DNA of 64,000 nt, from the NCBI GenBank assembly GCA_000182565.2, contig KQ257471.1. One strand, 5' to 3'. Below the pieces are notes generated by a model that saw nothing but the letters and a program-made list of their open reading frames with translations, searched no databases and had not been told where the DNA came from. This document shows positions 43,793-63,042 of the stretch, one piece after another. The DNA comes from Spizellomyces punctatus DAOM BR117 (lineage: Eukaryota). How positions within the stretch are numbered: position 1 is the stretch's first letter; each line of letters begins with the position of its first letter. The translations under genes and the position numbers were made by a program.

Positions 43793-46539
43793 TTAAAACA
43801 ATTTTCTTCCTACAATACCCTTGTTGACTTGCCCAATTCCTTGGACATTTCCGTCTCCAAATACATTCCCAAAGTTATTTACCATCAAAGTGATTCCAGA
43901 TACAAAAGCCTTGCCATCCATAGCGCAATGTGCGCCTTTGGGGGAAGCATCAGCGGTAAACTGCTTGTTGATGGCATCATCGTTCATCCCAGCTGCCGAC
44001 AATTCCTTGCTATACGCTGCCATGGCTTTGTTAAACTCGGGTTTGAGATCGGCAAGTTCGTTTTGCGTGGATTGAAAGTGAACACGGAGGGTCCCTAGGG
44101 CTGCGGGATCCTGGATTTTGACAGCGGGGGCTAGAGCACCACAATTTAAAAGGAAATTGTTGCCCTTGTAGGCGGCTGCAAACTTGGGCATAAAGTATCC
44201 CGATAGTAGGAGGGATCCACCGGAGACACCCGTAAAGCTGACCTTGTTTTTGTCAAAGTTGACAAGTTTAGGGAGCTCGTTTTGGATTAGATCGTTGATG
44301 GCGGCGGAATGAAGAGGTCCTAGGGGACGATCGTTTCCACCTTTTCCACCACCCCAAATGGGCAGATTCCGGCTTTGCGGATTCTTTGGCTGGAAAAAAA
44401 GAAAGGAAGCTGATTAGGTTACTGTTGTTAGGCTTTTTATAGACGACAGAACGGGTACTTACTGCTAAGAGGGCCACACCCATCAGACCATTAGCCGGGG
44501 TCTGGTTCGGGAAAGCCTCAAATGGAGAGCCACCATCGCCGTGAAGCAGCACATTGAGACCCATCAAACCATCGGCGCTGCCATTAGCCCCTCCAACGAG
44601 GAACTGTTCGGGAGCTGCAAGTTTGAAGCGAATAGGGATACCTTGAACCGTGGCTAGTACATCATGATAAAGTCAGTTTAGGGAGAGCCACTAGCGTGTA
44701 TTACAAACATGTCTGCAGCGTACCTGTTTGATCAATGATCTTGACGGCTAGCGTCTTTCCTGCACCAGGGACAGGAAGTGTCCCATTTCCACCGGTTTTA
44801 GCTCCCCCCGGGGTTGTTGTGCCCCCCGGTGTTGCTGGAGTTCCGCCGGTTTTCTTATCTGCTGCCGTGTCGCCGCCTTTCTTTGCTCCTTCCTTTTTCT
44901 TTCCTGCCTCCTTCTTCTTTCCTTTTTGCGCGCCGTCGTTTTTCTTGTCGCCAGGAGTTGGAGGAGTCTTTGCTGGTGGGATGTCACCAGTCTTCTTGTC
45001 GCCAGGAGCTGTAGGGGTTGTGTCGCCAGGGATTCCGCCGGTTTTCTTGTCGCCAGGAGTTGGAGGAATTTTCGCTGGTGGCGTTTCATTGCCCTTCTGG
45101 TCGCCAGGAGCTGTAGGGGTGCCTGGAGCTTCAGCGGTTTTCTTGTCGCCGGAAGTGGGCCCGTCTGGTACTTGTGTCCCATTAGGATTTTCAGGAGTTT
45201 TAGGTGCCGTCTCTCCATTTGGCGTCGTAGGTCCACCAGGTGCTCCAGGTGTTTTCTCCTCCCCTTCATGCCGTTCGTAAATTTGTGCGAAATGGTGTGG
45301 GGCTTTTGCAGCTGCTTGGGGTGTGACGTTATCTGCCGTGGGGCCTGAAGCAAATGCTGCTGCACCAGGATGGTGTGGTGCTTTTGCAGCAGCAGTTTTG
45401 GGTGCCGTCTTTGCATCAGCGGGGTCCGTGGGTGTAGCAGGCGCTGCTGGAGCTTTTACTGTTGCTGCAGGGGGAGTAGCGTTCCCACCTTTTGCACCTT
45501 TTGCACCTTTCGCACCTTTCGCATCTTTCGCATCTTTGGCTGCAGTTGGTGCTGCAGTTTCAGCGGGAGCGTCCGTGTCATCTGTCTCGGCTGCTGCCGC
45601 TGCAGGACTAGGTGCAGCGCCACCAGCTTTAGGAGCTGCTTGAGGTGTGACTTTATCTGCCGCGGGTGCTGCACCACCGTGGTGTGGCGCTTTTCCAGCG
45701 GTCTTGGGTGCCGTCTTTGCATCAGCGGGGGCCGTGGGGGAAGCAGGCGCTGCCGGAGCTTCTACGGTTGCTGGGGCGGGAGCAGCGTCCCCACCTTTCG
45801 TACCTGGCGCATCATTGGCTGCTGTCGGTGCGGCAGTTTCAGCGGGAGCGGCCGTGTCGCCTGTCTCGGCTGCTGCACCTGGCGCCGCCGTGGGACTAGG
45901 TGCAGCACCACCAGACTGAGGAGCTGCTTGGGGTGTGGGTTGCTCTGCCGCGGGGGCCGGAGTAGGTGCTGGACCTGCGGGTGGGTTCGCCGCTGGTTGA
46001 GGGGACGCAGGTGCCGCTGGTACTTGGGGATTATCTCCCGGAACTACCTTGATGATTATCACATTGGGTCCATCCGTAGGCTCCGGCCTCGGGACTGTTT
46101 GAATCGTCATTTTCTGGCCGCCGTCACCTTTTGCGGTGGCTACTGTGACTGGTGCGGGAGGGTTTTGTTCAGGAGGTGGTCCAGGAGGAGGTGGCCCCGG
46201 AGGAGGTACGTTCTGTTCAGGAGGAGGTGGTCCAGGAGGAGGCACATTTTGTCCCGGAGAAGTTTCTGTAGGAGGAGGTGGTCCAGGAGGAGGTGCGTTT
46301 TGACCCGGAGGAGTTTGTGCAGGCGGGGTTTGCCCACCTCCCGCCGCCAAGAACCCCTCCAACAACTTGTTCATCCCATTCGTGAATTGAAGTAACGCAT
46401 TCTTCGTGTTAAGGACATCCTCTGCAAAGTTACGGCGCTTTAGGACGCCTTGACCTGTACGTCGCTGCAGAGGAACTGCATAGACGACAGTCGCGACGCC
46501 TAAAAGCAATAATAAAGGAAAAAGTTTCTTAAAGTGCAT
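43793..46539 (-). CDS. Secreted Pro/Ala/Thr-rich repeat protein with C-terminal putative alpha/beta-hydrolase domain
   Basis: Signal peptide and QRR/KRR sites; exons 46539-44724, 44653-44463, about 44390-43793; NVLLHGDGG, FTGVSGGS, LLNCG, HFQSTQNE, GAHC. Confidence 0.8.
44930..46300 (-). repeat. Coding tandem repeats within the secreted protein
   Basis: PPPGPPPP units (about 46150-46300), two related ~290-330 bp blocks (about 45930-45310), AKG/AKD 9-bp repeats (about 45487-45535), (T/A)PGDKK units (about 44940-45150). Confidence 0.85.
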
Positions 46540-47725
46540 GGTTTACGCTCAAATGCATGAGTGCGTACAATGAATGTTGGTACGGCTTTCCAACAGAACA
46601 GGAGGCGTTCCGTTTGCATCTTGTTTTTATAAGAGGGGCAAGTTGGAGATGGCGACAAAACGGAGAATGGAAACCAAGCATCTCAACGATACAAAGCCGT
46701 GTGTCGAGTGTGTTTCTTGCTTACGGCATGCGCGATCGTGGCGCGTCGATTGGACCGAATCGCGTGTGGGGAACACTAAAAGTGTGACTTTTTCAGAGTT
46801 AAATCTCCTTCTTTCCATAGGGAACTTGTATATTAGGCGATATTTCATCTGCAAAACGTTTTATCGAATTCAATGTGGAGAGGGGATTCCATACATTGCA
46901 ATGCAACATGCATGTCTACACACATACACACAGAAAGTGGAGGTAATGATGCCACCCATTTTCTTGCAACCAGATTCAAAGAACGTTTGACATTCCCTGC
47001 TGATCTCGGGGATGGGTACTTGTAAGTTGCTCGATTTCATACAGCCACCACCATTGTCTGGCTGGGTAGAAATGGACGGTTCTCTTACCGGAGCGCTACC
47101 ATGACGAACAATGTGGTAGATAACAATGTAGGACCAAGAAACGGAAAGTCCAAGTTGATAAAAAGGTGTTTAGGACTATTTTAATAGTGTGGTAACTTTT
47201 TGTGGTCCGTTGAAAACAAAACTAGTAAGAGGCTGGAATGAGTGGACATTAGAAAAGAAATTAAATACAGCAGGTGGGCATTCAGAAACGCTGTCTAGGA
47301 CCACCTTAATCCACCAAAGCAAAAGTAGCCTGACTCGTCCATTCATCACATATCACAGTAGTTGCCAAGCTTGATTCCTACCAATGTCGCAGTGAATAAG
47401 AAAGAAGGATGGCATGAACTGGGACGATAATTCGATACCGCGTTCATAAAGGCCACCAAAAAAGTCGTCGTTAAATGCGACAGGATTCATAATTTCTCTT
47501 TATAATGAGAAAAAGGTGGACGGGTATACATGCCGTGTATAGCAAAACCTATCAGCATTCCAAAGAACACTACAAACAAAACAAAAGTTGTTATATAGAA
47601 CAGATAGAACAAATGGTTGGATCTTCCACTCCAGTGGCATCCCATGTACTCCTGTCTTTTAAAAGCATACGACAATTGTTTTTCTATACCCGTCTTGTAC
47701 AAAGAACTAGACTCCTTACAGCACA

Positions 47726-47932
47726 TTACAAATACCCCAACTTTTTTAACCCCTCCACCATCTCCGCATGCTGCTCAGCTCGTTCCTTTTGTTTCTCTTG
47801 ACTTTTTTTCGAGGGGTTCAACGTCTCGGATTTTGATGAGTCTGGTGGGTTGATGAGGGTTTCGGTGGACTTGAATGAATCTGGTGGGTTGATGAGTGTT
47901 TCGGTGGATTTGGAAGATGGTTTTTTGTTCAT
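47726..47932 (-). CDS. Possible small orphan protein with a 13-aa duplication
   Basis: 68-aa ORF with (S/F)KSTETLINPPDS twice (39-bp repeat), showing the same C-to-G gradient as neighbouring exons. No recognisable homology and the 5' end is uncertain. Confidence 0.3.
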   Translation of the reverse strand: MNKKPSSKSTETLINPPDSFKSTETLINPPDSSKSETLNPSKKSQEKQKERAEQHAEMVEGLKKLGYL

Positions 47933-49215
47933 GTTTTGAAATGTGTAGAGTTTTTTTTTTTGGTGGTGGAATGGGGTTTTTTATAGTGTGCATCTTTACG
48001 GTTTTTTGTTGTTGGTAGAGATTTTGGAATGTAGTGATTGTGGAGGATAATGTCATTTTCATCGCTTTGTTGGATTATGGACGCGAATGTGTTGTGTTGG
48101 AGGAATTGAACGAGTGTATAATGGTATTTTTGTCCTTTTTCTGATATGATTTTGGGATTTTTTTGGTCTTGGTGTGTATGGGATGTGCCTTGATGAAAGT
48201 TCCAGAGGTGTTGTTTTTGGTGTGTTTGTGGCATAGAGTAGCTAAACGTAAATTGATTGACTTTAGCATTATGCACTTGTTTCATTGCTGAAATCTCGTA
48301 CATTGCACGCCGTAATGCTAGCCAGTTTTTAAGCCGCACATTGCATTATGATGCATATACCACATCCATACAATTTTCATGCTGTCCAGATGTGACCTAA
48401 CATCCGCATGATGATAAATGAACTATCGCTCCCTTTTTCATATTTCCAAGAAAAAAACCTTTTTGGTACACTGCTTCTGCTGTAGGAACGTAATGGCAAA
48501 ATACCTGATGACAAACCTGTATCAGCGATACCGTTTGAATTGTTTGAGAGTAAATTGTTTGCACATGGCAAAAGGATATAGAAGAGGCATTATTTTACCA
48601 TATCATCCATGTAAAATCTTAACCCTAAAACAGATATCCAATGCCGACTGTTCAAGGACACTATTCGTGAGTATATTACACGCATTTACGTGAATGCAAG
48701 AGATGTGCCATTACGACATTTGCACTGATAGAATATACTCTTTACGCTTGCATTCGTGTGAGTCGAGTAGAAACCCATGAACTCTTGAATGTAAATGCGG
48801 CGACGAATAAGGATACTCCATAAAGTTTAAAAACGAAAATGGAAACCCCCAACAATGCTCAAGTCTTATTCAACAATGGAATGATATATGTTTTCCTCAC
48901 CAACAAACATCCTCATAAAAAAAAAACGCCTCTTTAACGATAGTTTGAATACGACATGCTTAAAAGGAAGAAACAAGACCACGCGACAGCTATTACCTAA
49001 TACCTTTGTAACGCCATCGACAACGACACAATCGATGACGTCAAGTATTTTTACAGAACACTTGCGTTTATTAGAAGCTGCAAGTGAGATGCTTTAACAT
49101 CCGTATTTTTTGTGTGTTTTTGCTTTTTGGTAGAGTTTGAAACTTGTGTGTTTTTTGTGTCTGTGAGAGATTACATTACTCATTTTGTTATTTTAGAGAT
49201 TGATTGGTTACAAAC

Positions 49216-51763
49216 ATGCCTGTTAGCGAGCACGCCCAGGTGGATATCACCAAACCATTGTTATTCGAGATTGCATGGGAGGTTGCGAATAAAGGTTTGT
49301 CTCCAATTCATACGGTTGTGTAGATGCGCGCGCGCGCTAAGTTTGAAAATGACAGTGGGTGGAATCTACACTGTGATAAAGTCCAAAGCCCCCGTTACAT
49401 GCAACGAATATGGAGACCGATACTGTCTCATCGGGCCTTTATCCTACAAAACCGCGCCAATGGAAGTAGAAGCCATCACGCAGCCTCAATCAGAAGCCAT
49501 GAAAGCCACATTGGATAATTTGGCGCAGAGGGGTGTGAAATATCTTTATGGGCGTTGGTTGATTGAGGGGGCGCCGCATGTGTTGTTGTTGGATGTGAGT
49601 TCGGCGTATCATAGGATGAATGAGTGGAAGAGTGATTTGTGGAGTATTGCGGGGATTCCGTCTCCGCCTGATGATCGGGAGACGAATGAGGCGATCGTGT
49701 TTGGGTATCTTGTTGCGTGGTTTTTGGGGGAGGTAAGAAACGAAAGAAAAGATCGTGTTTTTTTTATATACATTAAAAACTAAAGGGTTGATTTTTTGGG
49801 ATCTTGAAGTTTCTCCATCAACAACAATCTCTCAGGTCTTTCCCCGACTCTGAAGTCGACGATCGGCACCCCCCAAACACCAAACCCGCCATCATTGCCC
49901 ACTTTCACGAATGGCTCGCAGGCGTCGCGCTCGTCCTCCTCCGGAAACGCGCATTGAATATTGCAACTATCTTTACGACGCATGCGACATTATTGGGTCG
50001 ATACCTCTGTGCAGGCGACGTGGATTTTTATAATAACCTAAAATTCTTTGATGTGGATGCTGAGGCTGGGAAACGTGGATTTATCATCGGTATTGTATTG
50101 AGCGGCTGCGNNNNNNNNNNNNNNNNNNNNNNNNNNNNNNNNNNNNNNNNNNNNNNNNNNNNNNNNNNNNNNNNNNNNNNNNNNNNNNNNNNNNNNNNNN
50201 NNNNNNNNNNNNNNNNNNNNNNNNNNNNNNNNNNNNNNNNNNNNNNNNNNNNNNNNNNNNNNNNNNNNNNNNNAGTTTACTCGAGGACACTTTTACGGGT
50301 ACAATGATTTTGATTTGGATAATACATTGTATTTCTTTACGGCTGGGCGATACGAGTTTCGGAATAAGGGGGTTGATATGTTTATAGAGTCCATGGCGCG
50401 TGAGTATTTGTTTTGTTAAAAGTTTAATGGGTGGCATGTAAACGCTCGTTTTATAGGTTTGAATGCCCGGTTGAAGCATTACAATTCGCCTGTGACTGTT
50501 GTTGCGTTTATCATCATGCCGGCTTCTACGCATAGCTTTACGGTGGATGCGTTGAAAGGGCAGGCTGTGATGAAGCAATTGAAGGATACCGTGACCGAAA
50601 TTCAGGATTCTATTGGGAGTCGAATTTTCGATAACGCTGCTAGGTAAAAAAAAGATAAAAAAAATAGTGAACCTTGTATTTCATTTTATTCATTAGTTTT
50701 TTTTTTGACTAGGGGCAAGATCCCAGACGCATCTCACCTCGTCTCGGACCAAGACTTTGTCCTCCTCAAACGCCGAATCTTTGCTCTAAAACGGGACTCA
50801 CTCCCCCCGATCGTGACGCATAACATGGCCGATGATAAAAATGATCCCATTTTGAACCAAATGCGACAAGTGAAGCTCTTTAATGCTCCCGAGGATCGTG
50901 TGAAAATGATTTTTCATCCAGAGTTTTTGAGTTCGAATTCTCCGCTTTTGGGATTGGATTATGAGGAGTTTGTGCGTGGGTGTCATTTAGGTGTTTTCCC
51001 TAGTTACTATGAGCCTTGGTACGTTTCATTATCTTGATTTGTTAGCGAACATATAGTAACACTTTTTTTTAGGGGTTACACACCCGCAGAATGCACCGTG
51101 ATGGGCGTCCCATCCATCACGACCAACCTCTCTGGTTTCGGTTGCTTCATGGATGAAATGATTTCACACCCACCCGACTATGGAATCTACATTGTAGACC
51201 GCCGTCTCAAATCCGTTGAAGAATCCTGCCAACAACTCGCAGACTACATGATGGACTTTTGTCAAAAATCGCGTCGTCAGCGTATTAACCAACGAAACCG
51301 TACCGAACGCCTCTCGGACCTCCTTGATTGGAAACGCATGGGATTGGAATACGTTAAAGCGCGATGGGTCGCGATTCGACGTAAATGGCCCGACATTGTC
51401 GCCCAACATGAAACCGATTTAGATTCCGATGAATATGGAGCGGAATTACAGTATGGATATGAATCTGATGCGAACCCTTCTGGATTACAACGAGAGGATT
51501 TGACGAATTTGAGGTATCATCAAAAAGTCCCGCGTCCCGCTTCTGCGCCTGGATCTCCTAGAATTCGGGAGCGGATTGATGAGGATGAGGATGTTGTTGA
51601 TGGTACCGGGGGCTTATTTGAGGATATGGATCCTGTTGGGTTGATTGAGGGGTTGAAGGCTTTGGGTGTCAAGGGGACCGCCAAGGGCTATGTTCCGCCT
51701 GTGACTGAGGGTAGGGCGTCGAGTACGGGGGATTTGAATGCGAATGATCATGGTAGCAAGTAA
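49216..51763 (+). CDS. GSY1: Glycogen synthase
   Basis: [92 protein letters not shown]; interrupted by an assembly gap. Confidence 0.97.
50111..50273. other. Assembly gap (N run) inside glycogen synthase
   Basis: Run of N bases. Confidence 1.
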
Positions 51764-52008
51764 GAAAAAAGACCCAAAAAAAAAAAAACAGCGAGACAGA
51801 TTTGTGGTTTGTGTGTTTTTTTTTGTCTTCTTGTCTTCTTGTCAGATGCAATGAAAATCCTTTTAAAAAAAAAAGAAATACAAAAGAGATTTGGATAAAA
51901 CTTTATACACATTTTTTATACACATAAAAACAGTTTACAAGTATCGCCCCATCCATCCAACGAATCCTGTACTCTCAAAAATAAAATAAAATAAAAAAGG
52001 GCCCTTAC

Positions 52009-54511
52009 TTAGAACGGTAAACTCCAACTCCTCTTTTTGACCCTTCCCCCATTCGTATCCTTGACCTCTCTCAAAAACTCTACAACACACCCTTCATAAC
52101 ATAACCCAGGATGCACCACAACCGTCTCCAAAAACTTTTGAAAAGCGACAAGTCGGTCTCCAACAACTTTGGACGAAAACCGATCCAACCATCTCTTTTT
52201 CGGAAAGTGTGTACAAAGTAATGTAGGATACATTTTACTTAGTGCCGTGTACAATGCCCGGAATTCTCGATAGCGTTTATAAATCGTGTAGGATTTCGCT
52301 GTGGGGTTTTCGTAGGCTGTGATATGGGGGCGTAAGAGTGTGATTGTGATTTTATAGAGTGTGTGACGGGGGAGGGTTGTCGATGGTGTTGGATCGGATA
52401 TGTGGGTGTAGATGCCGAGGTGGTAGTATCGCGGTGGGACGGATGAAGAAGGCGGGAGGGGGAGAGTGGAGAAATAGTAGTTTGTGGATGGGGGGTCGTC
52501 AAAGATGGGGGGGAGGGTGTCAAAGGTTTCAGAGAGGTGATCGTCTGCTAGGCTTTCTGCTAGGCTTTCTGCTAGACTTTCTGCGAGGCTTTCTGAGATG
52601 CTTTCGGCTAGACTGTTTGATTCGATGGTGGTTTCGGAGGAATAGATACTATCGGTTCCAACGCCGTAGGACCAGCCTTTGCGTTTCCGAATGTAGAGGT
52701 CGTCATATAGATATGTGGATTCAAAGCTTGTTCGGCTGTGCGTGTCGGTTGGGTCGTGGGGAGTAGTTGTGATCATGGTAGTGGCGATCGGGGTTGTAGA
52801 GGTCGTGANNNNNNNNNNNNNNNNNNNNNNNNNNNNNNNNNNNNNNNNNNNNNNNNNNNNNNNNNNNNNNNNNNNNNNNNNNNNNNNNNNNNNNNNNNNN
52901 NNNNNNNNNNNNNNNNNNNNNNNNNNNNNNNNNNNNNNNNNNNNNNNNNNNNNNNNNNNNNNNNNNNNNNNNNNNNNNNNNNNNNNNNNNNNNNNNNNNN
53001 NNNNNNNNNNNNNNNNNNNNNNNNNNNNNNNNNNNNNNNNNNNNNNNNNNNNNNNNNNNNNNNNNNNNNNNNNNNNNNNNNNNNNNNNNNNNNNNNNNNN
53101 NNNNNNNNNNNNNNNNNNNNNNNNNNNNNNNNNNNNNNNNNNNNNNNNNNNNNNNNNNNNNNNNNNNNNNNNNNNNNNNNNNNNNNNNNNNNNNNNNNNN
53201 NNNNNNNNNNNNNNNNNNNNNNNNNNNNNNNNNNNNNNNNNNNNNNNNNNNNNNNNNNNNNNNNNNNNNNNNNNNNNNNNNNNNNNNNNNNNNNNNNNNN
53301 NNNNNNNNNNNNNNNNNNNNNNNNNNNNNNNNNNNNTTCGTGCCAGCACTCGTTGGCATTGTTTGAATGTAGGGTTCTTGACAGGCTTGCTCTGAAACGG
53401 GTATTTCATCCACGACGGGGAGGAGCAATGGGGGAACACTCGATTCAAAGGGCGTCTCAATCTCTTCGCCGAGACCAAATGTTCCCACGGAGCCGACCGA
53501 GCCGCCTCGTCGGTGTTTATTGGGTTTGATCGTCACGTCCGAGTCTGCGTCGGTTTCGGACATGAAGCTGAGGCGGTTGAGGCGGGGTGTCATCATCATG
53601 TCCGTGTCAACATTGAAGCTTTCCGAGGTGGTAGAGTGCGCATCTTCTGAGGGCATGTGCGAGGCGTCCTTGTCCGAGTGAGCGAGGTATGCGTCCAGGG
53701 TCGACTCACTTTCCAAGCTCTCGTAGTCGGGTGTGGATGAGGACGAGGAGGCGTGATTCGGTCTGTCGACAATGTCATTGTCTAGAGGTGCAAGTATCTC
53801 GCGCTCCAGTATGGGAACCGACATGTTGTTGTGGTTGGGTCGCGGAGTAAGGTCATTGTCTGCCGCGACGACAACATCATTTGAGAGGGACGGCGATCTC
53901 GGCTGAAAGTCATTCTTGTCCGGACGTGCAGGTATCTCGCGCTCGAGGATGGGAACAGACATGTTGGCGTGGTTGGGTCGGGGAGTGAGATCATTGTCTA
54001 GAGGTGAAGATTTCCCTCGTTCGAGAATGGCCCAGCGTTCGAGAATGGGGCCGTGTGTGTCGTTGGACCGGGGAGTAAGGTCATTGTCTGCCGGAACGAT
54101 ACATTCATTCGCGAGGGGCGGCGACCTCGGCTCAAGGTCATTCTTGTCTAGAGGTATCTCGCGCTCGAGGATGGGAATAGACATGTTGGCGTGACTGGGT
54201 CGGGGCGTCAGATCATTGTCTGCAGCCCCGAGTTCATTCGACATGGGAACACTTGCAGGCGGTTGAACTGTAGACTTTTCGGGGGATCCCAAAGAGGCAT
54301 TTGAGTTCTCGTCGTCGACGGCCTTCTTTTCTCTGGATTCAACGGCAGTCGACAAGGCACGAGTCAATGCAAAGTCGACAATGAGGGAAGTGAGGAGGGC
54401 GTCCGAGGATCTTTTTGCGTCCAATGAGACGAGCGGTTCGTCGTCGACTGAGGGAGCACCAGAGTGATGAATGTGGGTGGGGAAGGCTGTCGAGATTTTG
54501 TAGACGGCCAT
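52009..54511 (-). CDS. PX (phox homology) domain protein with long repetitive N-terminal region; 5' end uncertain
   Basis: C-terminal HTLYKITI..YTIYKRYREFRALYTAL..FPKKRWLDRFS..VVGDRL..FQKFL; open frames on both sides of the N gap. Confidence 0.7.
52809..53336. other. Assembly gap (N run)
   Basis: Run of N bases. Confidence 1.
53760..54225 (-). repeat. Imperfect coding repeats DNDLTPRPNHANMSVPILEREI
   Basis: Recurring GACAATGA(T/C)CT..AC and ATGTC..TTCCCAT..T.GAGCGCGAGATAC units. Confidence 0.85.
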
Positions 54512-55329
54512 GAGACATTTACGAACCCGTGGAGAGTAGCAAAGGGGACGTTAATGACTTTCAAGTCGAGAGAAACCGTGCAGGTAAATGGGAGGCTCCC
54601 TAACGAGTATTGGAATTGCAAGAGTGTGTCGTGTAAAGTCGTTTCAACAAGCCAATACCGGACGCTATGCAAAACAAGGAGGAATATCAACAGTAACAAA
54701 CAGCAATACAGACATGCAAACTCTAATGGAGAAATAAAAAAATAAAAAAAAAGAGATGATGATGATGATTCCCCGAGCCAAAAAAGTGTGAAAAAATAAT
54801 GGCAAACAGATGGGCCCCCTCTCTCCTAAATGTCACGCGTTGCCGCCAGTTCCACATTTTGTATCCCACTTTGTATCCAAATATGATGATGGTTGTTAAC
54901 ACGGGTGGTTTAACACAGCAGGTTTTAGATGTATTGGAATGACTAGAATTTCATATCGATGTTGAATATGGGAGATTTGTAATTTATTCCCTTGTGGGTT
55001 CGTTGCTATTTCATAGCAATTGCTGTGGTGCTACTACATCATCATACCCTGGTTTAACGCATTCATACCTGGGCTTGACGCATTCTGCTGTGTTTCTGCT
55101 GTGTATCCGTTTATCTGTTCCATCATATATTCGATATCTAGTTGTAGAGAGAGTAGAGAGAGAGAGAAGAAGAAACTTTTAGAGGGCACTTAAACGTGTG
55201 CATAACCTTGTAACTCGTAAGAGCAACACACGACAACAGCAGTCAAATGTGTGTTCAAATCAACCAATGTATCATGATTGTGAGTAAAATAAAAACAATA
55301 TAAATAAATAGGTTTAGAATGAGTGAAAA

Positions 55330-55398
55330 CTCTCTCTCTCTCTATTAGAAGAAACAATATCTATTACACACACACACTCTCTCTCTCTCTCCCTTACA

Positions 55399-55458
<60 letters not shown>

Positions 55459-55749
55459 TACATACATACATACATACAGATGAAATTCTCTCTCTCACAC
55501 ACACATTCATTCATAGTCTCTCTCTCTCTTGTGGTCTCTGTCTGTGGATATTTCTCTCTCTCTCTCTCTCTCTCTCTAATTAACGTCTCTCTCACTCACT
55601 CACTAGTAGCATTATTCTCTCTCTCTCATCAACACACAATCACACACAATATCACATTCACACTCCATCATTCTCTCTCTCTTTTCACTCGATCATTCTC
55701 ACTTGCAGATTACATTCACTCTTGTCTCTCCCCCTTACTAGTAGCATTA

Positions 55750-55780
<31 letters not shown>

Positions 55781-55812
55781 GTTCTCTTGTTCTAACGTGT
55801 CACTCTCTCTTT
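55330..55812. repeat. Compound microsatellite (CT)n/(CA)n/(CATA)n upstream of AP-3 delta
   Basis: Directly visible dinucleotide and tetranucleotide runs. Confidence 0.95.
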
Positions 55813-55924
55813 CACACTCGCACACTCCTTGATTACATCATCTCACACTCGTATTATCACGTGATTCATACTCACATTTAGTATCTCTTGTTGTTGTTGC
55901 ATTCATTGCATTCATTCATTCATC

Positions 55925-58900
55925 ATGTTTGAAAAGGTAAGTATCAATTATTACACACTCATCTTCTCGTTTATTGACAATGTACTAGTCCCTAGCAGAC
56001 CTCATTCGAGGGTTACGCGCAAACAAAAAGAATGAGCAAAAGTACATTGGATCTTGCTTGGACGAGATTAGGTCTCAGGTCAGAACAAACGACCCTCACA
56101 CAAAGGCTACAGCCATACAGAAACTCGCCTATCTCCACATGCACGGATACGACATGTCTTGGGCTTCTTTCCACGTTATTGAAGTCATGTCCCTCCAAAA
56201 GACGCTCTACAAGCGCATTGGCTATCACGCCGCCGCAGTCTCTTTTCGTCAAGACACGGACGTTCTCATGCTCTGCACCAATTTGATCAAAAAGGTATTG
56301 TATTCGAGATTCGATCGCTAAGCAGGGGGAAATGCGATAGTGAGAGGCGTGAGCAACTGGTGACGAAAAGGGAGGGAAAGCGTTGGGACGACTAGCAAGT
56401 ATGACCATGAACGAGGGGATAACGGGCACTATGGAGTGGAAAACATGTTCTCATCCATCTCTCTCTCTCTCTTTCTCACACACACTCTCTCTCCCTCTGT
56501 ATCTCCCCTCTTTTCGTCCTCGTCACGATAGGACCTCTCGTCAAATAACTATGTCGACACAGCGATTGCATTGCACGGCCTCGCCTCCATCGTCACCCCA
56601 GACCTCGGACGCGACCTCTGCCCAGACCTGATTGCCATGCTCAACCATTCACGCCCCTACATTCGCAAACGCGTCATTCTCGTCTTGTATCGCGTGTTTT
56701 TAAAGTATCCTGAAGCATTGAGGATGGCCTTTCCGAGATTAAAGGAAAAGTTGGATGATCCTGATCCAGGTGGGTTCTGAACGCGCGCGCGCCATGTTGG
56801 ACGTGTTGGCATATTCTTATGAATCTACTGTTTGTCTTTTTGCATCTTGTTTCTCAAATGCCATGTCATACATGTCCTCGATATTGGATATCATGCTCTG
56901 GCTATACGTCTTGAACTTGTCATGGATTATCACCCTCGGCTCTTGGAAATTGTCTACCCCTTTGATACTGCCATGCCTCTTTTTTGGGATGACCTCCTCG
57001 ATAGCCGTGGTGTCGGCGGCAGTCAATGTGATTTGCGAACTGGCGAGAAGAAATCCAAAGAGTTACCTCCCCCTCGCTCCCCAACTCTACGGACTCTTGA
57101 CAAACTCGACCAACAACTGGATGCTCATTAAAATCATCAAACTGGTAAGTGTGTCTGTCTTTTTTACCCCCGTCATGGCCGCGGCCTCGACCGGTAGAGG
57201 GCACGTTGATACGGGCTCAACGACTACATGGTCTGGGGTGAAACGACACAGGGGCATATCAGAGTTTCCGACTTGAAGCCCGTTTGGCGAAAATGAAAAT
57301 GTCGCTAAAACCTTTCATGTCAGTTTGCAGCACTGGCGCCCCTCGAGCCCCGTCTCATCAAAAAACTCGTCCCGCAAATTTCGAGCGTCATCCAGAGCAC
57401 CAGCGCAATGTCCCTCCTCTACGAGTGCATTCATACCGTGATTATAGGAGGCATGATTGGTCCCGAGACAGAGAATGGAGAGAATGAGGCACAGGATTCC
57501 GCGCTGGCGAGATTGTGCACTGCAAAACTAAAGCTGTTTATCGAGGAGCCTGATCAAAATTGTACCGTTTCTTTCGTGCCTCGCTTGTCGTTTCTGGGTT
57601 GTCATGACTGATTGCTTTCGCCCTCCTTTTACAGTAAAGTACCTTGGCCTGTATGCCTTGTCAAAGCTCCTCGCCGTACGTCCGAAAGCCGTCGTGGAAC
57701 ATCGGGATACCATTCTCGAATGCTTAGATGACGCCGATGTGAGCATTCGCATGCGAGCTCTGGATATTGTGACTGGAATGGTACGGCACCGCCAAATGCC
57801 ACATTGTCACCTGTGACGGACATGTTTTGATTATAAACAACATATTTAGGTCACACCAGGAAATCTGGTCCAAATCGTTCGCAAGCTCATGACCCAGCTC
57901 TTACCTCCCACCGCGGACACCTCCCCCTCTGCATCCTACCCACCCCCCTCGGTCACACCCATTCTCGACGCCACAGACCGCGCCCATGTCATAGAGCGCA
58001 TCATCTCCATTTGCTCTCAAGATACCTATACCAATGTCACCAACTTTGAATGGTACATTACCCTTTTGACAAACTTGGTCCGCGTCCGGGGTGTGGATGT
58101 CGGCACGCGCCTGTCTGCGCAACTCATTGATGTGTCGGTGCGCGTACCTGAAGTCCGTGAATTTGCCGTGCAGGCCATGACGGCGTTAATTGAGGATGAG
58201 GGGGTGATGCAGTCTGCCAACCAGGACATGAACAATGCGCGCGTGTTGGTGGGTGCTGCGTGGATTGTGGGGGAGTATTGCATATACCTTGTGGATCCGG
58301 TTCGTATCATGATGAGGATGCTCGCGCCGGGTGTGACGCGCTTGCCTCCCACCGTGCAAGCCGTGTACCTCCACAACGTATTGAAGATTTATGGACACTG
58401 GGCTTGTACGGCTACCGACCCCACCACTACGACGCAATCGATCCTGGAAGCTCTAAGGCCATTTAAAACGAGTTTTGATTCCGAAGTCCAGGAACGGGCT
58501 TGTACTCTTTTTGAAATCCTCCACCTCGCTCTATCGGATCCTGCCCTGGTCCCATCTATCCGGGCACTGTTTAGTGGTGAATTGAACCCGGTTGCCCCCA
58601 AAGCTCAAAAACGTGTCCCAGTGCCTGCGGGACTGGACCTGGACCAGTGGATTCATGAACCGGAACCGGAGCCTGTTCAAGAAGAAGAAGAGGAAGAGGA
58701 CAATGACAGAGTGCCAGATGAATGGTTCAAACAAGACGTACAAGAACAGATTGTGGATTCTGATGATGTTGAGCGGGTATAACTCAAGTTCGGCCCTTTT
58801 TCTTTTGAGACTCTAGACACTAATCCCTTTTGACTAGCGCCGACAATCCCGAGCGGAGCGTCTCAAGCATGATCCGTTTTACATTCCCTCCAAACCCCTC

Positions 58901-60150
58901 TACGACGATATTGACATTAACGAGATCCCTATTGTCCGCCTTGAGCTTAATGTTCCACCAGAGCAAATAGCCCCAACAAGACAGGTCCCCAAAAAGAAAA
59001 AGAAACGACCGATATCCCCTCCTCCGGTACCGAAAACGTATTCTATCAATCGCGGAGGGGACATGCCAGAGAATAGTGTTGTTTCGAGTGAGGATGATGA
59101 GGTGGAGCATGAGGTGGATGAGGTGACCAAGGCGGTTATGAGTGTGGATTTGAGTTTGGGAGAAGAAACTCGTGTGGAATCTGGGACGAGCCAGGTGGAT
59201 GCCAAGGTGGATGTACCGGCGAAAAAAACTAGGACGAAATCCACCAAGGCGGACAAGGCGGGCAAGACGGGCAAGACGGGCAAGACGGGCAAGACGGGCA
59301 AGAAGAAAACCAAGACGGAATCCAAAACGAAAACGGACAAGCGCAAGAAAAAGGTAAACGAACCATTTGATACTTGTACGTATCTTTTTTCGTTTCTAAC
59401 CACTTGATAGAAACCCGTCTCTATCGCTGACCCGTCGCTTGCACCGAGTACCATCAATAAATCCCTCCTCGCTGTGCGCGGTCTTGAAATGAACACGCCT
59501 TACGAACGCGTCGCGTCGCCGGCCCCAACCGAACAAGCTGAACAAGAATGGGTGGATATTGGAGGCGATGAGCAATTTCAAGTGGTATGTTGTTTTCCTC
59601 TCTCGTATAACCAATTTTTTCGCATTGTAATTTTTTGGTGTAGGCCTTCAAGTATAAACTCTTGCCTTCTTCCACAACCCTCACACTTTTATTCACAAAC
59701 AAAACCCCCTCACCCCTCCCTCTCACCGCGACCCTCTCCCACACGGACCAAGACCTATCCATGACCCTTCCCCCCACATCCACCACAACCCGCACCCTCA
59801 CCATCACGTCCACCCACCACCCAACATGGCTTGATGTCCTTGGTACAAAGTTCTTGGTACCCATCCCCTTGTCACCCGAATCCTTTAATGAGTTGGTAGC
59901 TACTACGAAATGGACTTACTCTGCTCGCAAGACGCTACCGATTTCGGGAGCGAATACAAGAGAGGTCGTCTCTGGTGTTGCACGTGTGCTTGGGATGGAG
60001 CTTGTTGAAGTTGTTGGTGATGCTGGGACTTTGGTTATGAGAGGCGGACAGGTGGTTGGGTTGGTTAAAGTGCTTTGGGAGACGGGTGGGGTTTTGGTTG
60101 AGGTTCGAGGGGTGGGTGAGGTTGAAGGGGTGCTTGAGAGGTTGGTATGA
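55925..60150 (+). CDS. APL5: AP-3 adaptor complex delta subunit
   Basis: MFEKSLADLIRGLR, GYDMSWASFHVIEVMS, KRIGY, RPYIRKR, ICELARRNP, NNWMLIKIIKL, AMSLLYECI, EVQERA, ELNPVAPKAQKRVPVPAGLDLDQWI. Confidence 0.96.
59261..59303 (+). repeat. 9-bp coding tandem repeat (GGCAAGACG)n, encoding GKT, in the AP-3 delta hinge
   Basis: Four perfect copies plus a partial copy. Confidence 0.9.
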
Positions 60151-60532
60151 TTTGAGAGAGATTTAGGCATTGGGTGTATGGGTGTGTGTGCGAGGGTATA
60201 CCCGTAGTTTTGGGAACGGGGAGGTTTGATTTGCGAAATGGGCTTTGTTGAAGGTGTTGGTGATGTTGACTGTGGAGGGAGGTTGGGTTGCTTGAGAGGT
60301 TGGAATGAGTATATTGAGGAAAGCTGTTTTTTCGTACATCTTAGATTGTGTGTTTTTTTTGTGGGATGAGGATGGATAATGAGATAATCTAAATCACTGG
60401 GATTTACTCACTAACACTGTACAGTAGTATTCGCCCCATATTCAATCTATCACGTGAACTCATGACTCCCCAACGACAAAGCACTTGTCACTCCAAAACT
60501 CGTTCAAGTATGAGATCAACGAATCCAGCATA

Positions 60533-60817
60533 ATGTCCAATGCATTCACATTTATCGTCAAATCAACCCTATATGGCGGAAGTATCATTGGCCTCGGATA
60601 CCTCCTCATGAAAGCCACCGTCCCAACACCTGACGAAATGCGCCAGGCAAGCACCCAAAAAAAACAATCACACTCTTGCCGTTATATTGATTATATTTTG
60701 TAGAGATTGGAATCGTTGGGACATGCACCTCTTGAAAAAGAACGTATGAATAAAGTTTTGGAGGTTATTAAAGAGAATGCTGCGAGTGATCGGCCGGTTT
60801 GGGATGTTCGTTGGTGA
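60533..60817 (+). CDS. CBP4: Cytochrome bc1 assembly factor Cbp4-like small mitochondrial membrane protein
   Basis: GGSIIGLGYLLMKATVPTPDEM, GC-AG intron 60647-60703, then ..IKENAASDRPVW. The stop may be 60817, or a further intron may follow. Confidence 0.7.
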
Positions 60818-61440
60818 GTTTTCATGGAATGTGGAAACTTGTGTGAATGATTCTTGTTTTTTTGATTGGTTTTTGTTTTTTCGGCAGGGAGGGGGACTCT
60901 AAAGGGCGGTAAAACTCTACCATATATATGTTTAGGAGGGGTTTGGATGGTGGAGACGAATGTCAAGTTGTTTTTTTTTGGGATGTGGGATTTTGCGGTG
61001 TGTATAGGTGGGTGGTGGTGGGTTTGTGGTAGGGAATGCATGGATGGTATCGTTAAGGATGCCAGATGATCCTTTTGTTAAATATATGGAAAAATATTGT
61101 TGAGTTGGGGGTCTGATACCCCACTTGTATGGACTATGAGTTGGAATCTTTTTGTTTTTATTCACGTTTGCAACTATGCATTTGTTTAATTAAGTGTCAA
61201 AAGGCCACACAAGACTGTTTTTTGTTTGTACTTTTGCAAGGTGAATGAAAACTAACGAGTTGTCATGCCTAGGTAGAGACCTAAACGACTAAAAAAAGAC
61301 GGTTTGCGAAATATATATTCAATGTTTTGTAAAGGGCAACAAAAGGCCTAGTTCCAAACACACAAAAACCCAAACCCTTCAACTCACATATTCAAAAAAC
61401 ATAAAAGGGTATAAAAGTGTAAACAAATAAAATAAAAATC

Positions 61441-62566
61441 TCATTTGGATAACGATCGATGAAATTCCGTCAAGGCACTACACAAAATATAAGTATCCCA
61501 CTTGAATCATGGACCATTACATAACTCACCTCTCTAAATCAAAAAGTAACTGCCGGACTTGATCTTGAGTAATCTCATCTGACGCTCTAAACCGTAAAAA
61601 CCATATCAATATCATATAACCTCCTCCTTTCATCCTCCCCTAAAAACACTCGGACTCACTTCATTTTATTCAACGTAATCAACCTACCCAAACCAAAAAC
61701 CTCATTAACAACATCATCCCACACACCAAAAAAAAAAACACAACAAAAACACAATTTACCAATCCCGAATCTTGACTTTGCCAACATAATCCCCAGGCAA
61801 CGTCGATACTTTATTCAAACTCTGAATCAAATCACTCAATTGCGGATGTATTTGATCCACTGCGACGTAATTCAATTTCAACGAGTCCATTAACGTAATA
61901 AACACCTTACATAAAAAAACTTTTAATTTTCATTCAAACTATTTGTTTTTTTATAATGTGACTTACTTGAACGGTCTCGGCAACGTGTTTAGCTCCACTA
62001 GAACCTTCCACAGAAGCATGCTCTACTGTCGCTGGTACACCCACCTCCAATAACCGTTTCGTAGCCGCCGGACACGACAACTAAAAAAGAAAATACATTC
62101 AGAAATAATCCCTTCCTTTATTGTTTGTTGAGAGACGTGAACACTCTTACCTTGTACCCCTTGATAAAAGCATTAATATCCGGCACAACATCCGAAACAA
62201 GATTCAAAGCCGTCTTGTATTGTGCAATCAATTTCAGGCATGCCGGTGTATACCTAAAAAAAACCCACCACTTAACCCTCATTCCAAATACGATTGTGAT
62301 TTGGGTTTTACGTTACTCTTGGGCTGAGATGGCATCCCGAATGTAGGCTCGTTCCAAGTACTCTGTCGCGACGAGTATACCGTATAAATCAGCCATGTTG
62401 TCGTATTTTTCGCGGTCTTTGTTGGTTGTGTAGAGTCGGAGTTCCTATCATGTGAATTAGCGGACTGTAAAGTGTATTGTGGGGGCGTTTGAAAGGGGGG
62501 ACTTGCTTGGTCGAGGGATCGGTCTGTCGGTGTTGTGGGGTTTGTTGGAGAAAAGGAAGAGTACAT
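61441..62566 (-). CDS. VPS28: ESCRT-I subunit Vps28
   Basis: Reconstructed exons give ELRLYTTNKDREKYDNMADLYGILVATEYLERAYIRD..EYTPACLKLIAQYK..CPAA.KRL..FITLMDSLKLN..DQIHPQLSDL..QVRQLLFDLE. It is missed by the ORF track because the exons are short. Confidence 0.93.
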
Positions 62567-63042
62567 GGTTGGGAGTGCGAATGCAGGTGTGATGTGAGAG
62601 GTTGATGTTTTGGGTAGAGGAATGAAGGCAAAAGTTCACAATGCTGATCTAGAGAGACGACCTGCCAAAGCATGCAAGGTTGGCGCTACTTTGTTGAGTC
62701 ACGCGCAGATTACGTAATTGCCAAACATCCTATGATTGTCACCTCTACACTAACTTCCTCTCAAACCTATGTACTCAAAGCAATATGCATCAATTTCGCA
62801 ACGTGAAAGGCATGTATTTTGTCACAACGTAAAGGTTTTGATAAAGCAGGTACGCAAACAAGAAGCACACACAAAATTTGGAACCGCACAACGCCGATAT
62901 TCACCATCTACCCCTCCTATACGGCTGTTCCTTTACACATGTCATTTTGCAATTGTCCAAAAGGTGCAATCATTAGCAAACGTCATTTTATGCTATGCTG
63001 AAATGGTACCACAGTGGAAATAATAGACAAATGTCAACCACT

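What the first reader, a model, noticed from the sequence alone, without database searches (positions are those of the whole stretch)
47700..62600. Exon-scale C-rich to G/T-rich gradient that reshapes codon and amino acid usage
Seen: in this region nearly every long exon or short gene starts C/A-rich and ends G/T-rich. Examples are GSY exons 49356-49731, 50713-51018 and 51073-51763, the AP-3 delta last exon 59644-60150, the PX last exon, Cbp4 and VPS28. The gradient resets at poly(A/T)-rich introns and intergenic tracts. In conserved GSY it appears as a switch in synonymous third positions. In the AP-3 delta tail it tracks the protein itself (TPSPLPLTATLSHT..TLPPTSTTT, then VVSGVARVLG..GGVLVEVRGVGEVEGVLE). 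A C-to-G gradient reads the same on both strands, so it need not be transcription-directional. Inference: a local strand-asymmetric mutation, repair or gene-conversion process anchored on poly(dA:dT) tracts. The gradient is much weaker left of 47 kb.
Basis: partly seen in the sequence, partly recalled or inferred. Interest (0 to 1): 0.7.

Follow-up and report, generated by a model that had tools for sequence, protein, structure and literature searches.

The report
Strand-skew domains around microsatellite hubs
In a chytrid fungus, clusters of ordinary genes around repeat-rich promoter regions have exons that start C-rich and end G/T-rich even at silent positions, which probably records a strand-specific mutation process, such as DNA-break repair or replication start, concentrated at these sites.

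Summary
The gradient is real. In three RNA-confirmed glycogen synthase exons, third-position G+T rises from about 0.32 to 0.82-0.98. It also amplifies an amino-acid bias in the AP-3 delta tail. It is not universal: 9 of 19 introns reset it, Cbp4 and VPS28 show only a gene-scale gradient, and poly(A/T) runs are not required.

New here: the zone is a domain centred on the divergent PX|AP3D intergenic region, which holds a polar GA|CT/CA microsatellite cluster. Twelve other loci, picked by microsatellite alone, show raised skew, and 11 of 12 have a stronger exon gradient than background. Genes pointing away from a hub are C-richer than genes pointing towards it, out to 12-15 kb. A weak form exists outside the domains.

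Gene-level 5'-C/3'-G skew in fungi is known (McLean and Tirosh 2011). My searches found no paper on the intron phasing or the hub domains. Mechanism is inferred: mutagenesis of resected single-stranded DNA in break-hot domains (0.4), replication initiation zones (0.3), transcription (0.17). The scan noted similar waves before, elsewhere in this genome and in another fungus.

The parts
47500..62700 (.). High-amplitude GC-skew domain, about 7.5 kb either side of the hub
   Evidence: SD of 200-bp GC skew 0.28-0.36 in the three 5-kb bins versus 0.15 and 0.18 in the flanking bins
54600..55924 (.). Hub: long divergent intergenic region between the PX gene and AP-3 delta; GA-rich run, then CT and CA microsatellites; G-to-C flip at about 55.0-55.4 kb
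49216..51763 (+). Glycogen synthase, 6 coding exons; resets at introns 49733-49809, 50644-50712 and 51019-51072; none at 49295-49355 and 50400-50456
   Evidence: Pfam PF05693; splice joints
52009..54514 (-). PX-domain gene with an assembly gap; coding strand C-rich over most of the 3' part and G-rich in its last quarter (-0.40, -0.50, -0.53, +0.46)
   Evidence: Pfam PF00787; start codon inferred from the reading frame
55925..60150 (+). AP-3 complex subunit delta, 10 exons; resets at 6 of 9 introns and one inside exon 7 (about 58345)
   Evidence: open frame across the joined exons; homologues
59644..60150 (+). AP-3 delta last exon: strongest gradient (-0.76 to +0.76); P/T/S/H-rich first part, G/V/E-rich end
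60533..60817 (+). Cbp4-like gene, 2 coding exons; gene-scale gradient, with the C-to-G switch lying in its intron
   Evidence: Pfam PF07960 below its cut-off; joint
61756..62566 (-). VPS28, 5 coding exons; gene-scale gradient, no resets at its introns
   Evidence: Pfam PF03997; three joints; first intron inferred from frame and gene finder
47700..48345 (-). Small ORF region without a Pfam match; C-rich then G-rich on the minus strand

Best explanation
Shown: a weak exon-scale C-to-G skew outside the domains is amplified about three- to four-fold in 20-30 kb domains. Each domain is centred on a long, usually divergent intergenic hub with G-type repeats (AG, TG) on the left and C-type repeats (CT, CA) on the right. 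Inside a domain the + strand is G/T-rich for 150-450 bp left of some non-coding stretches and C/A-rich right of them, about once per kb, and it carries a further net offset of the same sign about the hub. Inferred: these domains are DNA-break or recombination-hot regions. Breaks fall in open, A+T-rich stretches (promoters, terminators, some introns), most often at the hub. 5'-to-3' resection exposes, on each side, the strand whose 3' end faces the break. That strand loses C and A (C to T, C to G, A to G) through damage and error-prone refilling. Over evolutionary time this writes a G/T|C/A flip at each site, shifts synonymous codons, pushes weakly constrained residues, and expands homopolymers and microsatellites.
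For: The polarity follows from resection geometry alone (own knowledge) and needs no reference to gene direction. Resets occur for both orientations. 5 of 16 hubs are predicted tandem rather than divergent. The strand running towards an anchor has less C and A and more G and T at two-fold sites, and more G at four-fold sites. This fits the strand-asymmetric C>N and A>N footprint in the 2 kb flanks of human meiotic breaks (PMC7615360, section 4 and passages). Excess power lies at periods of 0.4-1.2 kb (10-17 times the white level versus about 3), with none at 150-180 bp. Homopolymers and microsatellites cluster in the domains. A Spo11 domain is present, and a second, intron-rich DMC1/RAD51-type gene exists. 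The skew SD is also raised in the one telomere-bearing 10 kb examined.
Against: No break, crossover or polarised mutation data were available; everything is composition. The away/towards offset reaches 12-15 kb, far beyond meiotic resection, and the amplitude decline alone seems too shallow to produce it (my rough estimate). The local range of 150-450 bp is shorter than the 1-2 kb resection cited for humans. GC-biased conversion is not clearly seen: four-fold GC rises to 0.52-0.57 from 0.48, but two-fold GC falls. C-to-T deamination alone does not fit the four-fold composition (toy model). A sexual cycle in chytrids is unproven (PMC6572847 passages). The Hinch passage I read does not state which side of the break carries which change. 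C22 and C1 contig starts show no raised skew, though they bear no telomere repeat.
Confidence: 0.4

Rival explanations
1. Hubs are efficient replication origins or initiation zones. The 12-15 kb offset is a leading/lagging-strand bias of the yeast type (leading strand C/A-rich). The local waves come from dispersed initiation, or from origin-linked breaks, at open stretches in the zone.
For: Genes pointing away from a hub have four-fold skew -0.22 (n=46) versus -0.04 for genes pointing towards it (n=45), p=9e-6, same direction in 9 of 12 prospective loci. The polarity matches the leading strand of three yeasts (PMC3459929 passages). Hubs are long intergenic regions (0.8-5.3 kb versus a median of 470 bp). 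Human origins raise breaks and mutation load at promoters and splice sites (PMC9645720 passages). This rival can overlap with the best explanation.
Against: The offset is a plateau that vanishes beyond 15 kb (+0.02, -0.03) rather than declining to a midpoint, although data there come from three regions only. The jump of about 0.17 is twice the 9% cited for S. cerevisiae origins. There is no A-over-T offset at four-fold sites. One origin does not explain sign flips every kilobase on both sides.
Confidence: 0.3
2. Transcription-coupled mutation: the known fungal C-bias downstream of start sites is produced in both directions from every open site (promoters, terminators, A+T-rich introns with cryptic antisense starts) and is stronger in highly open chromatin domains.
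For: The same polarity is seen at gene starts and stops inside and outside domains. It is the main hypothesis of McLean and Tirosh. The coding strand is C-richer overall in domains. 11 of 16 hubs are divergent and none convergent. A range of a few hundred bases fits short cryptic transcripts (own knowledge).
Against: It does not explain why genes several kb away, separated from the hub by other genes, differ by orientation to the hub. Deamination of the exposed non-template strand would give the opposite sign after a start site (own knowledge).
Confidence: 0.17
3. Selection on RNA or protein: splicing enhancers near exon ends, mRNA folding of C-rich against G-rich halves, or protein needs.
For: G-to-C switches are tied to exon borders. 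Other chytrid AP-3 delta tails have the same bias in milder form.
Against: The amplitude depends on distance to a hub, not on gene type. About half of the introns do not reset. The pattern continues in intergenic DNA and in the polarity of the microsatellites (18 of 23 loci).
Confidence: 0.08
4. Nucleosome-polarised repair: slower repair on the 3' side of each strand in positioned nucleosomes gives a C-to-G/T ramp per nucleosome, reset at A+T-rich linkers.
For: Right polarity and direction-independent (PMC6961582 abstract).
Against: No excess power at 150-180 bp (1.4 versus 1.4). The ramp stretches with exon length up to 600 nt. There is no oscillation in 40-nt bins of long exons.
Confidence: 0.05

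Closest known systems
Opposite GC skews at 5' and 3' gene ends in fungi (McLean and Tirosh 2011, PMC3315797; parts 1-2 of 4 and passages read)
   Same: C-biased 5' ends and G-biased 3' ends, seen at four-fold sites and in amino-acid use; Spizellomyces punctatus is in their species list.
   Different: They work per gene; the word 'exon' does not occur and 'intron' occurs once. Here the skew resets at a subset of introns, is concentrated in hub-centred domains and has a 12-15 kb offset about the hub.
Replication-linked skew jumps at yeast origins and C. albicans centromeres (Marsolier-Kergoat 2012, PMC3459929; passages read)
   Same: G|C jump of the same sign at a long intergenic site, visible at third codon positions.
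   Different: The offset ends at about 15 kb, kilobase waves are superimposed, there are several sites per contig, and no origin map exists.
Strand-asymmetric mutagenesis around human meiotic breaks (Hinch et al. 2023, PMC7615360; section 4 and passages read)
   Same: C>N and A>N changes on one strand flanking a site; repeat instability.
   Different: Measured there as new mutations within 2 kb of mapped breaks; here only standing composition, with many anchors per domain.
Asymmetric repair in nucleosomes (Mao et al. 2020, PMC6961582; abstract read)
   Same: Rotationally symmetric strand polarity, with more mutation on the 3' side.
   Different: Nucleosome scale; the waves here are 0.4-1.2 kb with no 150-180 bp signal.

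Membership tests
Fungal within-gene GC skew (McLean and Tirosh) | Coding strand C-biased at 5' end and relatively G-biased at 3' end | tested here: met
   four-fold C0.38/G0.13 at starts and C0.24/G0.26 at stops within 8 kb of hubs; C0.27/G0.21 and C0.24/G0.28 beyond 15 kb
Fungal within-gene GC skew (McLean and Tirosh) | Affects four-fold sites and amino-acid use | tested here: met
Fungal within-gene GC skew (McLean and Tirosh) | AT skew flat along genes | tested here: inconclusive
   four-fold T/A flat across introns in 4 of 5 distance bands, but shifted in the curated window exons (A64/T48 to A28/T83)
Yeast-type replication origin | Leading strand enriched in C | tested here: met
   away-minus-towards difference -0.12 to -0.25 out to 15 kb, if the hub is taken as the origin
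Yeast-type replication origin | Leading strand enriched in A over T | tested here: not met
   four-fold A/T 0.237/0.239 (away) versus 0.247/0.235 (towards)
Yeast-type replication origin | Skew declines gradually to the inter-origin midpoint | tested here: inconclusive
   plateau, then zero beyond 15 kb; few regions, and weaker origins in between are possible
Yeast-type replication origin | Initiation activity | not testable with these tools
   no replication data
Meiotic break hotspot | Spo11 and Dmc1 machinery present | tested here: inconclusive
   TP6A_N match over cut-off; two full-length recombinase loci matched exon by exon, neither over the DMC1 cut-off; genes not read for integrity
Meiotic break hotspot | Strand-asymmetric C>N and A>N mutation in flanks | tested here: inconclusive
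   composition compatible; no polarised substitutions; only 40 of 634 differences were listed
Meiotic break hotspot | GC-biased gene conversion | tested here: inconclusive
   four-fold GC up, two-fold GC and intron GC down
Meiotic break hotspot | Mapped breaks or crossovers | not testable with these tools
   no data
Centromeric skew jump (C. albicans type) | One site per chromosome | tested here: not met
   two domains on the 322-kb contig C22 and four on C5

The most novel reading that the evidence does not exclude
The hubs are a sequence-readable map, roughly 100-170 sites genome-wide by extrapolation from contig C1, of recurrent break (possibly meiotic recombination) or replication-initiation domains in a chytrid with no described sexual cycle or origin map. 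Their strand-specific mutagenesis is strong enough to rewrite codons and protein sequence exon by exon. The fungal 5'-C/3'-G skew would then be one site-centred process rather than separate initiation and termination effects.
Probability: 0.35. Interest if true: 0.85.

Novelty: new variant of a known kind. Interest (0 to 1): 0.63.

Why it matters
The fungal within-gene GC skew was left with two untested hypotheses in the 2011 paper. Here it varies several-fold within one genome, in domains with predictable centres and predictable reset sites. Competing causes (breaks, origins, transcription) can therefore be tested by overlaying one map on a list of coordinates. If the hubs are recombination-hot they are indirect evidence for sex in this lineage; if they are origins they give a first origin map for a chytrid. 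In practice the bias distorts codon-usage and selection estimates, and it misled my own gene finder at G/T-rich exon ends.

Tried and rejected
Assembly artefact: rejected; independent contigs match the exons. Telomere effect for this window: rejected; the domain is 80-95 kb from the contig end and the DNA in between is flat. Centromere: rejected (several domains per contig). Nucleosome period: no spectral signal. Fixed 0.9-kb period: the average spectrum peaks at 0.85-1.2 kb, but the 27 per-segment peaks range from 0.3 to 1.4 kb. Poly(A/T) tracts as sufficient anchors: weak; intergenic deltas are 0.16 and 0.06 in domains and 0.12 and 0.08 outside, and 10 loci around A13 runs are mixed. CpG methylation as driver: CpG o/e is 0.87-1.05 in the domain, like the flanks, and the G gain occurs in all next-base contexts. 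Pure C-to-T deamination: does not fit four-fold composition. Metagenome scan: 5 distant fungal loci (37-40% identity), skew SD 0.16-0.19, not informative for close relatives. Sequencing runs: no RNA holder listed; depth was not used to rank genes. A strict intron filter left only 92 of 2138 introns, so a relaxed filter (347 of 2138) was used; both agree. An evenly spaced genome-wide control sample was not obtained, so background rests on three inner stretches of C22 (about 165-180 kb) plus about 55 kb from C1 and C10. Literature searches without a paper on exon-phased or hub-centred skew.
Full report
Setting. The window is G000:C22:177658-241657 in a 24.1-Mb, 38-contig genome. An AP-3 delta exon is 90% identical to a Spizellomyces protein and 50-56% to other Spizellomycetales, so the organism is a Spizellomyces chytrid. 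The species name S. punctatus comes from recall and from earlier scan notes, not from a test. Pfam confirms glycogen synthase, PX, VPS28 and Adaptin_N, and gives a sub-threshold CBP4 match. Spliced contigs of runs X1 and X8 give the GSY and Cbp4 introns and three of the four VPS28 coding introns. The ten AP-3 delta exons rest on homology and one open frame.

Observation. In curated exons of at least 230 nt, third-position G+T rises from the first to the last 40% of codons in 8 of 9 exons, significantly in 6. The three GSY exons tested go from 0.30-0.35 to 0.82-0.98, and the AP-3 delta last exon from 0.25 to 0.79. One GSY exon with an assembly gap was left out of that count; by all positions it runs from -0.39 to +0.34. 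Short exons behave differently: Cbp4 and VPS28 run from C-rich to G-rich across the whole gene without resets. A step filter finds 21 G-to-C switches in the region. Nine sit at or next to coding-region introns (9 of 19 such introns), ten are intergenic or in UTRs, and two are inside exons. Introns with resets include two of 50-52% GC, and the A/T-run-rich VPS28 introns have none. Left of 47 kb the effect is present but weaker (four-fold first/last 120 nt: -0.27/+0.04 versus -0.60/+0.16).

Protein effect. The AP-3 delta tail has an amino-acid-implied skew of -0.62 in its first part and +0.59 in its last. The sister Spizellomyces protein has -0.54 and +0.40, and eight other chytrids have -0.28 to +0.05 and +0.15 to +0.37 (alignment). 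The bias is therefore shared within the genus and amplifies a milder trend that the fold already imposes. The relative's DNA in run X11 (about 90% alike) also keeps the gradient in the one exon whose differences were listed; 40 of 634 rows were shown.

The domain. Across all of C22 the SD of 200-bp skew peaks in two places, 130-140 kb and 225-240 kb (this finding), together with poly(A/T) runs, microsatellites and assembly gaps. Two more domains turned up at C1:610 kb and C10:40.5 kb. All four centre on a long intergenic region with AG/TG repeats on the left and CT/CA repeats on the right; here it is the PX|AP3D region at 54.6-55.9 kb. As a prospective test I took the CT-repeat hits in list order, skipping the C1 site already used and one at a contig end, and fetched 30 kb around 12 centres. 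Centres were later shifted by up to 400 bp to the repeat switch. Mean skew SD within 6 kb is 0.27-0.29 against 0.148 +/- 0.036 in 59 background bins, and falls to 0.17-0.22 at 12-15 kb. The four-fold exon gradient exceeds background in 11 of 12 loci. G-type repeats lie left of C-type repeats in 18 of 23 loci that hold both; some of these loci overlap. Eleven of 16 hubs are predicted divergent, against 82 of 287 other intergenic regions, and none is convergent. On C1, 16 microsatellite sites have a median spacing of 117 kb, and 9 of 16 have an A13 run within 12 kb (3.6 expected, p=0.006). Only one C1 site was profiled in full, so 100-170 domains genome-wide is an extrapolation.

Intron phasing. 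Beyond the window I used a self-trained gene finder. It recovered 16 of 19 curated introns, which were also its seeds, and unaided found four UTR introns seen in X1. It miscalls some G/T-rich exon ends as introns. It was retrained without rescoring. Contig ends of C22 and the first 12 kb of C10 were set aside. Among 347 filtered introns of 2138, the keto-skew step across the intron at degenerate third positions is 0.32 within 10 kb of hubs (n=108) and 0.09 beyond 15 kb (n=162), p=5e-5, and it is positive in 14 of 15 regions. It grows with intron A+T content in domains only. Upstream exon ends have more G and less C at four-fold sites, more T than C at pyrimidine two-fold sites, and more G than A at purine two-fold sites; downstream starts are the mirror image. 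The C-rich zone lasts about 300 nt and the G-rich zone about 150 nt on top of a C-rich baseline. The spectrum has a broad excess at 0.4-1.2 kb and none at 150-180 bp. G-to-C switches avoid exon interiors (11% versus 27%, p=4e-11) and C-to-G switches favour them (39%).

Long-range offset. Whole genes pointing away from a hub are C-richer than genes pointing towards it: differences are -0.25, -0.18, -0.17, -0.17 and -0.12 in 3-kb bands to 15 kb, then +0.02 and -0.03. In the 12 prospective loci alone the values are -0.22 and -0.04 (p=9e-6). The sign and base pattern match the local resets, which suggests one process with two ranges.

Mechanism. Shown: the two-level, direction-independent asymmetry, its link to hubs and its phasing by non-coding DNA. 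Inferred: its cause. Resection at breaks gives the polarity directly, and the loss of C and A from one strand resembles the footprint around human meiotic breaks (PMC7615360). Spo11 and a second recombinase gene are present. Against it stand the 15-kb offset, the short local range, the mixed GC signal and the unproven sexual cycle (PMC6572847). Yeast-type origins explain the offset and its sign (PMC3459929) but not the repeated flips, unless initiation or origin-linked breakage is dispersed (PMC9645720). Transcription explains gene ends but not orientation to a distant hub. I put these at 0.40, 0.30 and 0.17; the first two could both be true.

Known and new. McLean and Tirosh describe the gene-level skew, including four-fold sites and amino-acid use, with this species in their list, and do not analyse exons (figures and supplements not seen, so per-species detail there may bear on the background level). 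Fujimori 2005 (PMC555766) was seen as a search listing only. Searches returned no paper on intron-phased skew in fungi or on hub-centred domains; the library lacks most subscription papers. The scan noted related patterns in this genome (e1-7175225) and in another fungus (e1-7646939); these are unchecked notes, not support. Verdict: a real, new variant of a known fungal skew, whose domain structure makes the cause testable. Interest 0.63.

Noticed in passing
window 50076-50274: The assembly lacks one letter in the glycogen synthase exon and has an N gap that three runs fill with 178 letters, so the gene is probably intact.
   Followed up: partly
window 60647-60703 and 62445-62506: Two GC-AG introns within 2 kb (Cbp4, supported by a splice joint; VPS28 first intron, inferred from frame and gene finder).
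   Followed up: partly
window 49130-49196, 60814-60887, 61478-61529, 61587-61659: UTR introns: one in the GSY 5' UTR, one starting at the Cbp4 stop codon, two in the VPS28 3' UTR.
   Followed up: no
window 49326-49337 and 56783-56792: Alternating CG tracts inside introns of GSY and AP-3 delta; the only two such runs on C22 at this length.
   Followed up: no
window 59644-60150: The AP-3 delta appendage is about 45-70 residues shorter over the two compared parts than in other chytrids and has no Pfam match; shared with the sister species.
   Followed up: partly
window 47700-48345 (minus strand): Small ORF region without a Pfam match and with an internal repeat; relative X11 lacks 81 letters there; run X2 covers 47500-48279 without a joint.
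   Followed up: no
window 53800-54230: Internal near-repeats of about 45 residues in the PX gene N-terminal part; no Pfam match.
   Followed up: no
window 44701-46542 (minus strand): Long low-complexity ORF with strong A/T skew just outside the domain.
   Followed up: no
G000:C22:20000-35000 (L013, L014): CpG strongly depleted (o/e 0.15-0.46), possibly a methylated transposon region.
   Followed up: no
L010:1-10000: C10 starts with telomere repeats, and its first 10 kb has raised skew variance and a CT repeat at 5 kb.
   Followed up: partly
domains generally: Assembly gaps are frequent in domains (6 of 12 prospective loci hold 100 or more N), so these regions may be under-assembled.
   Followed up: no
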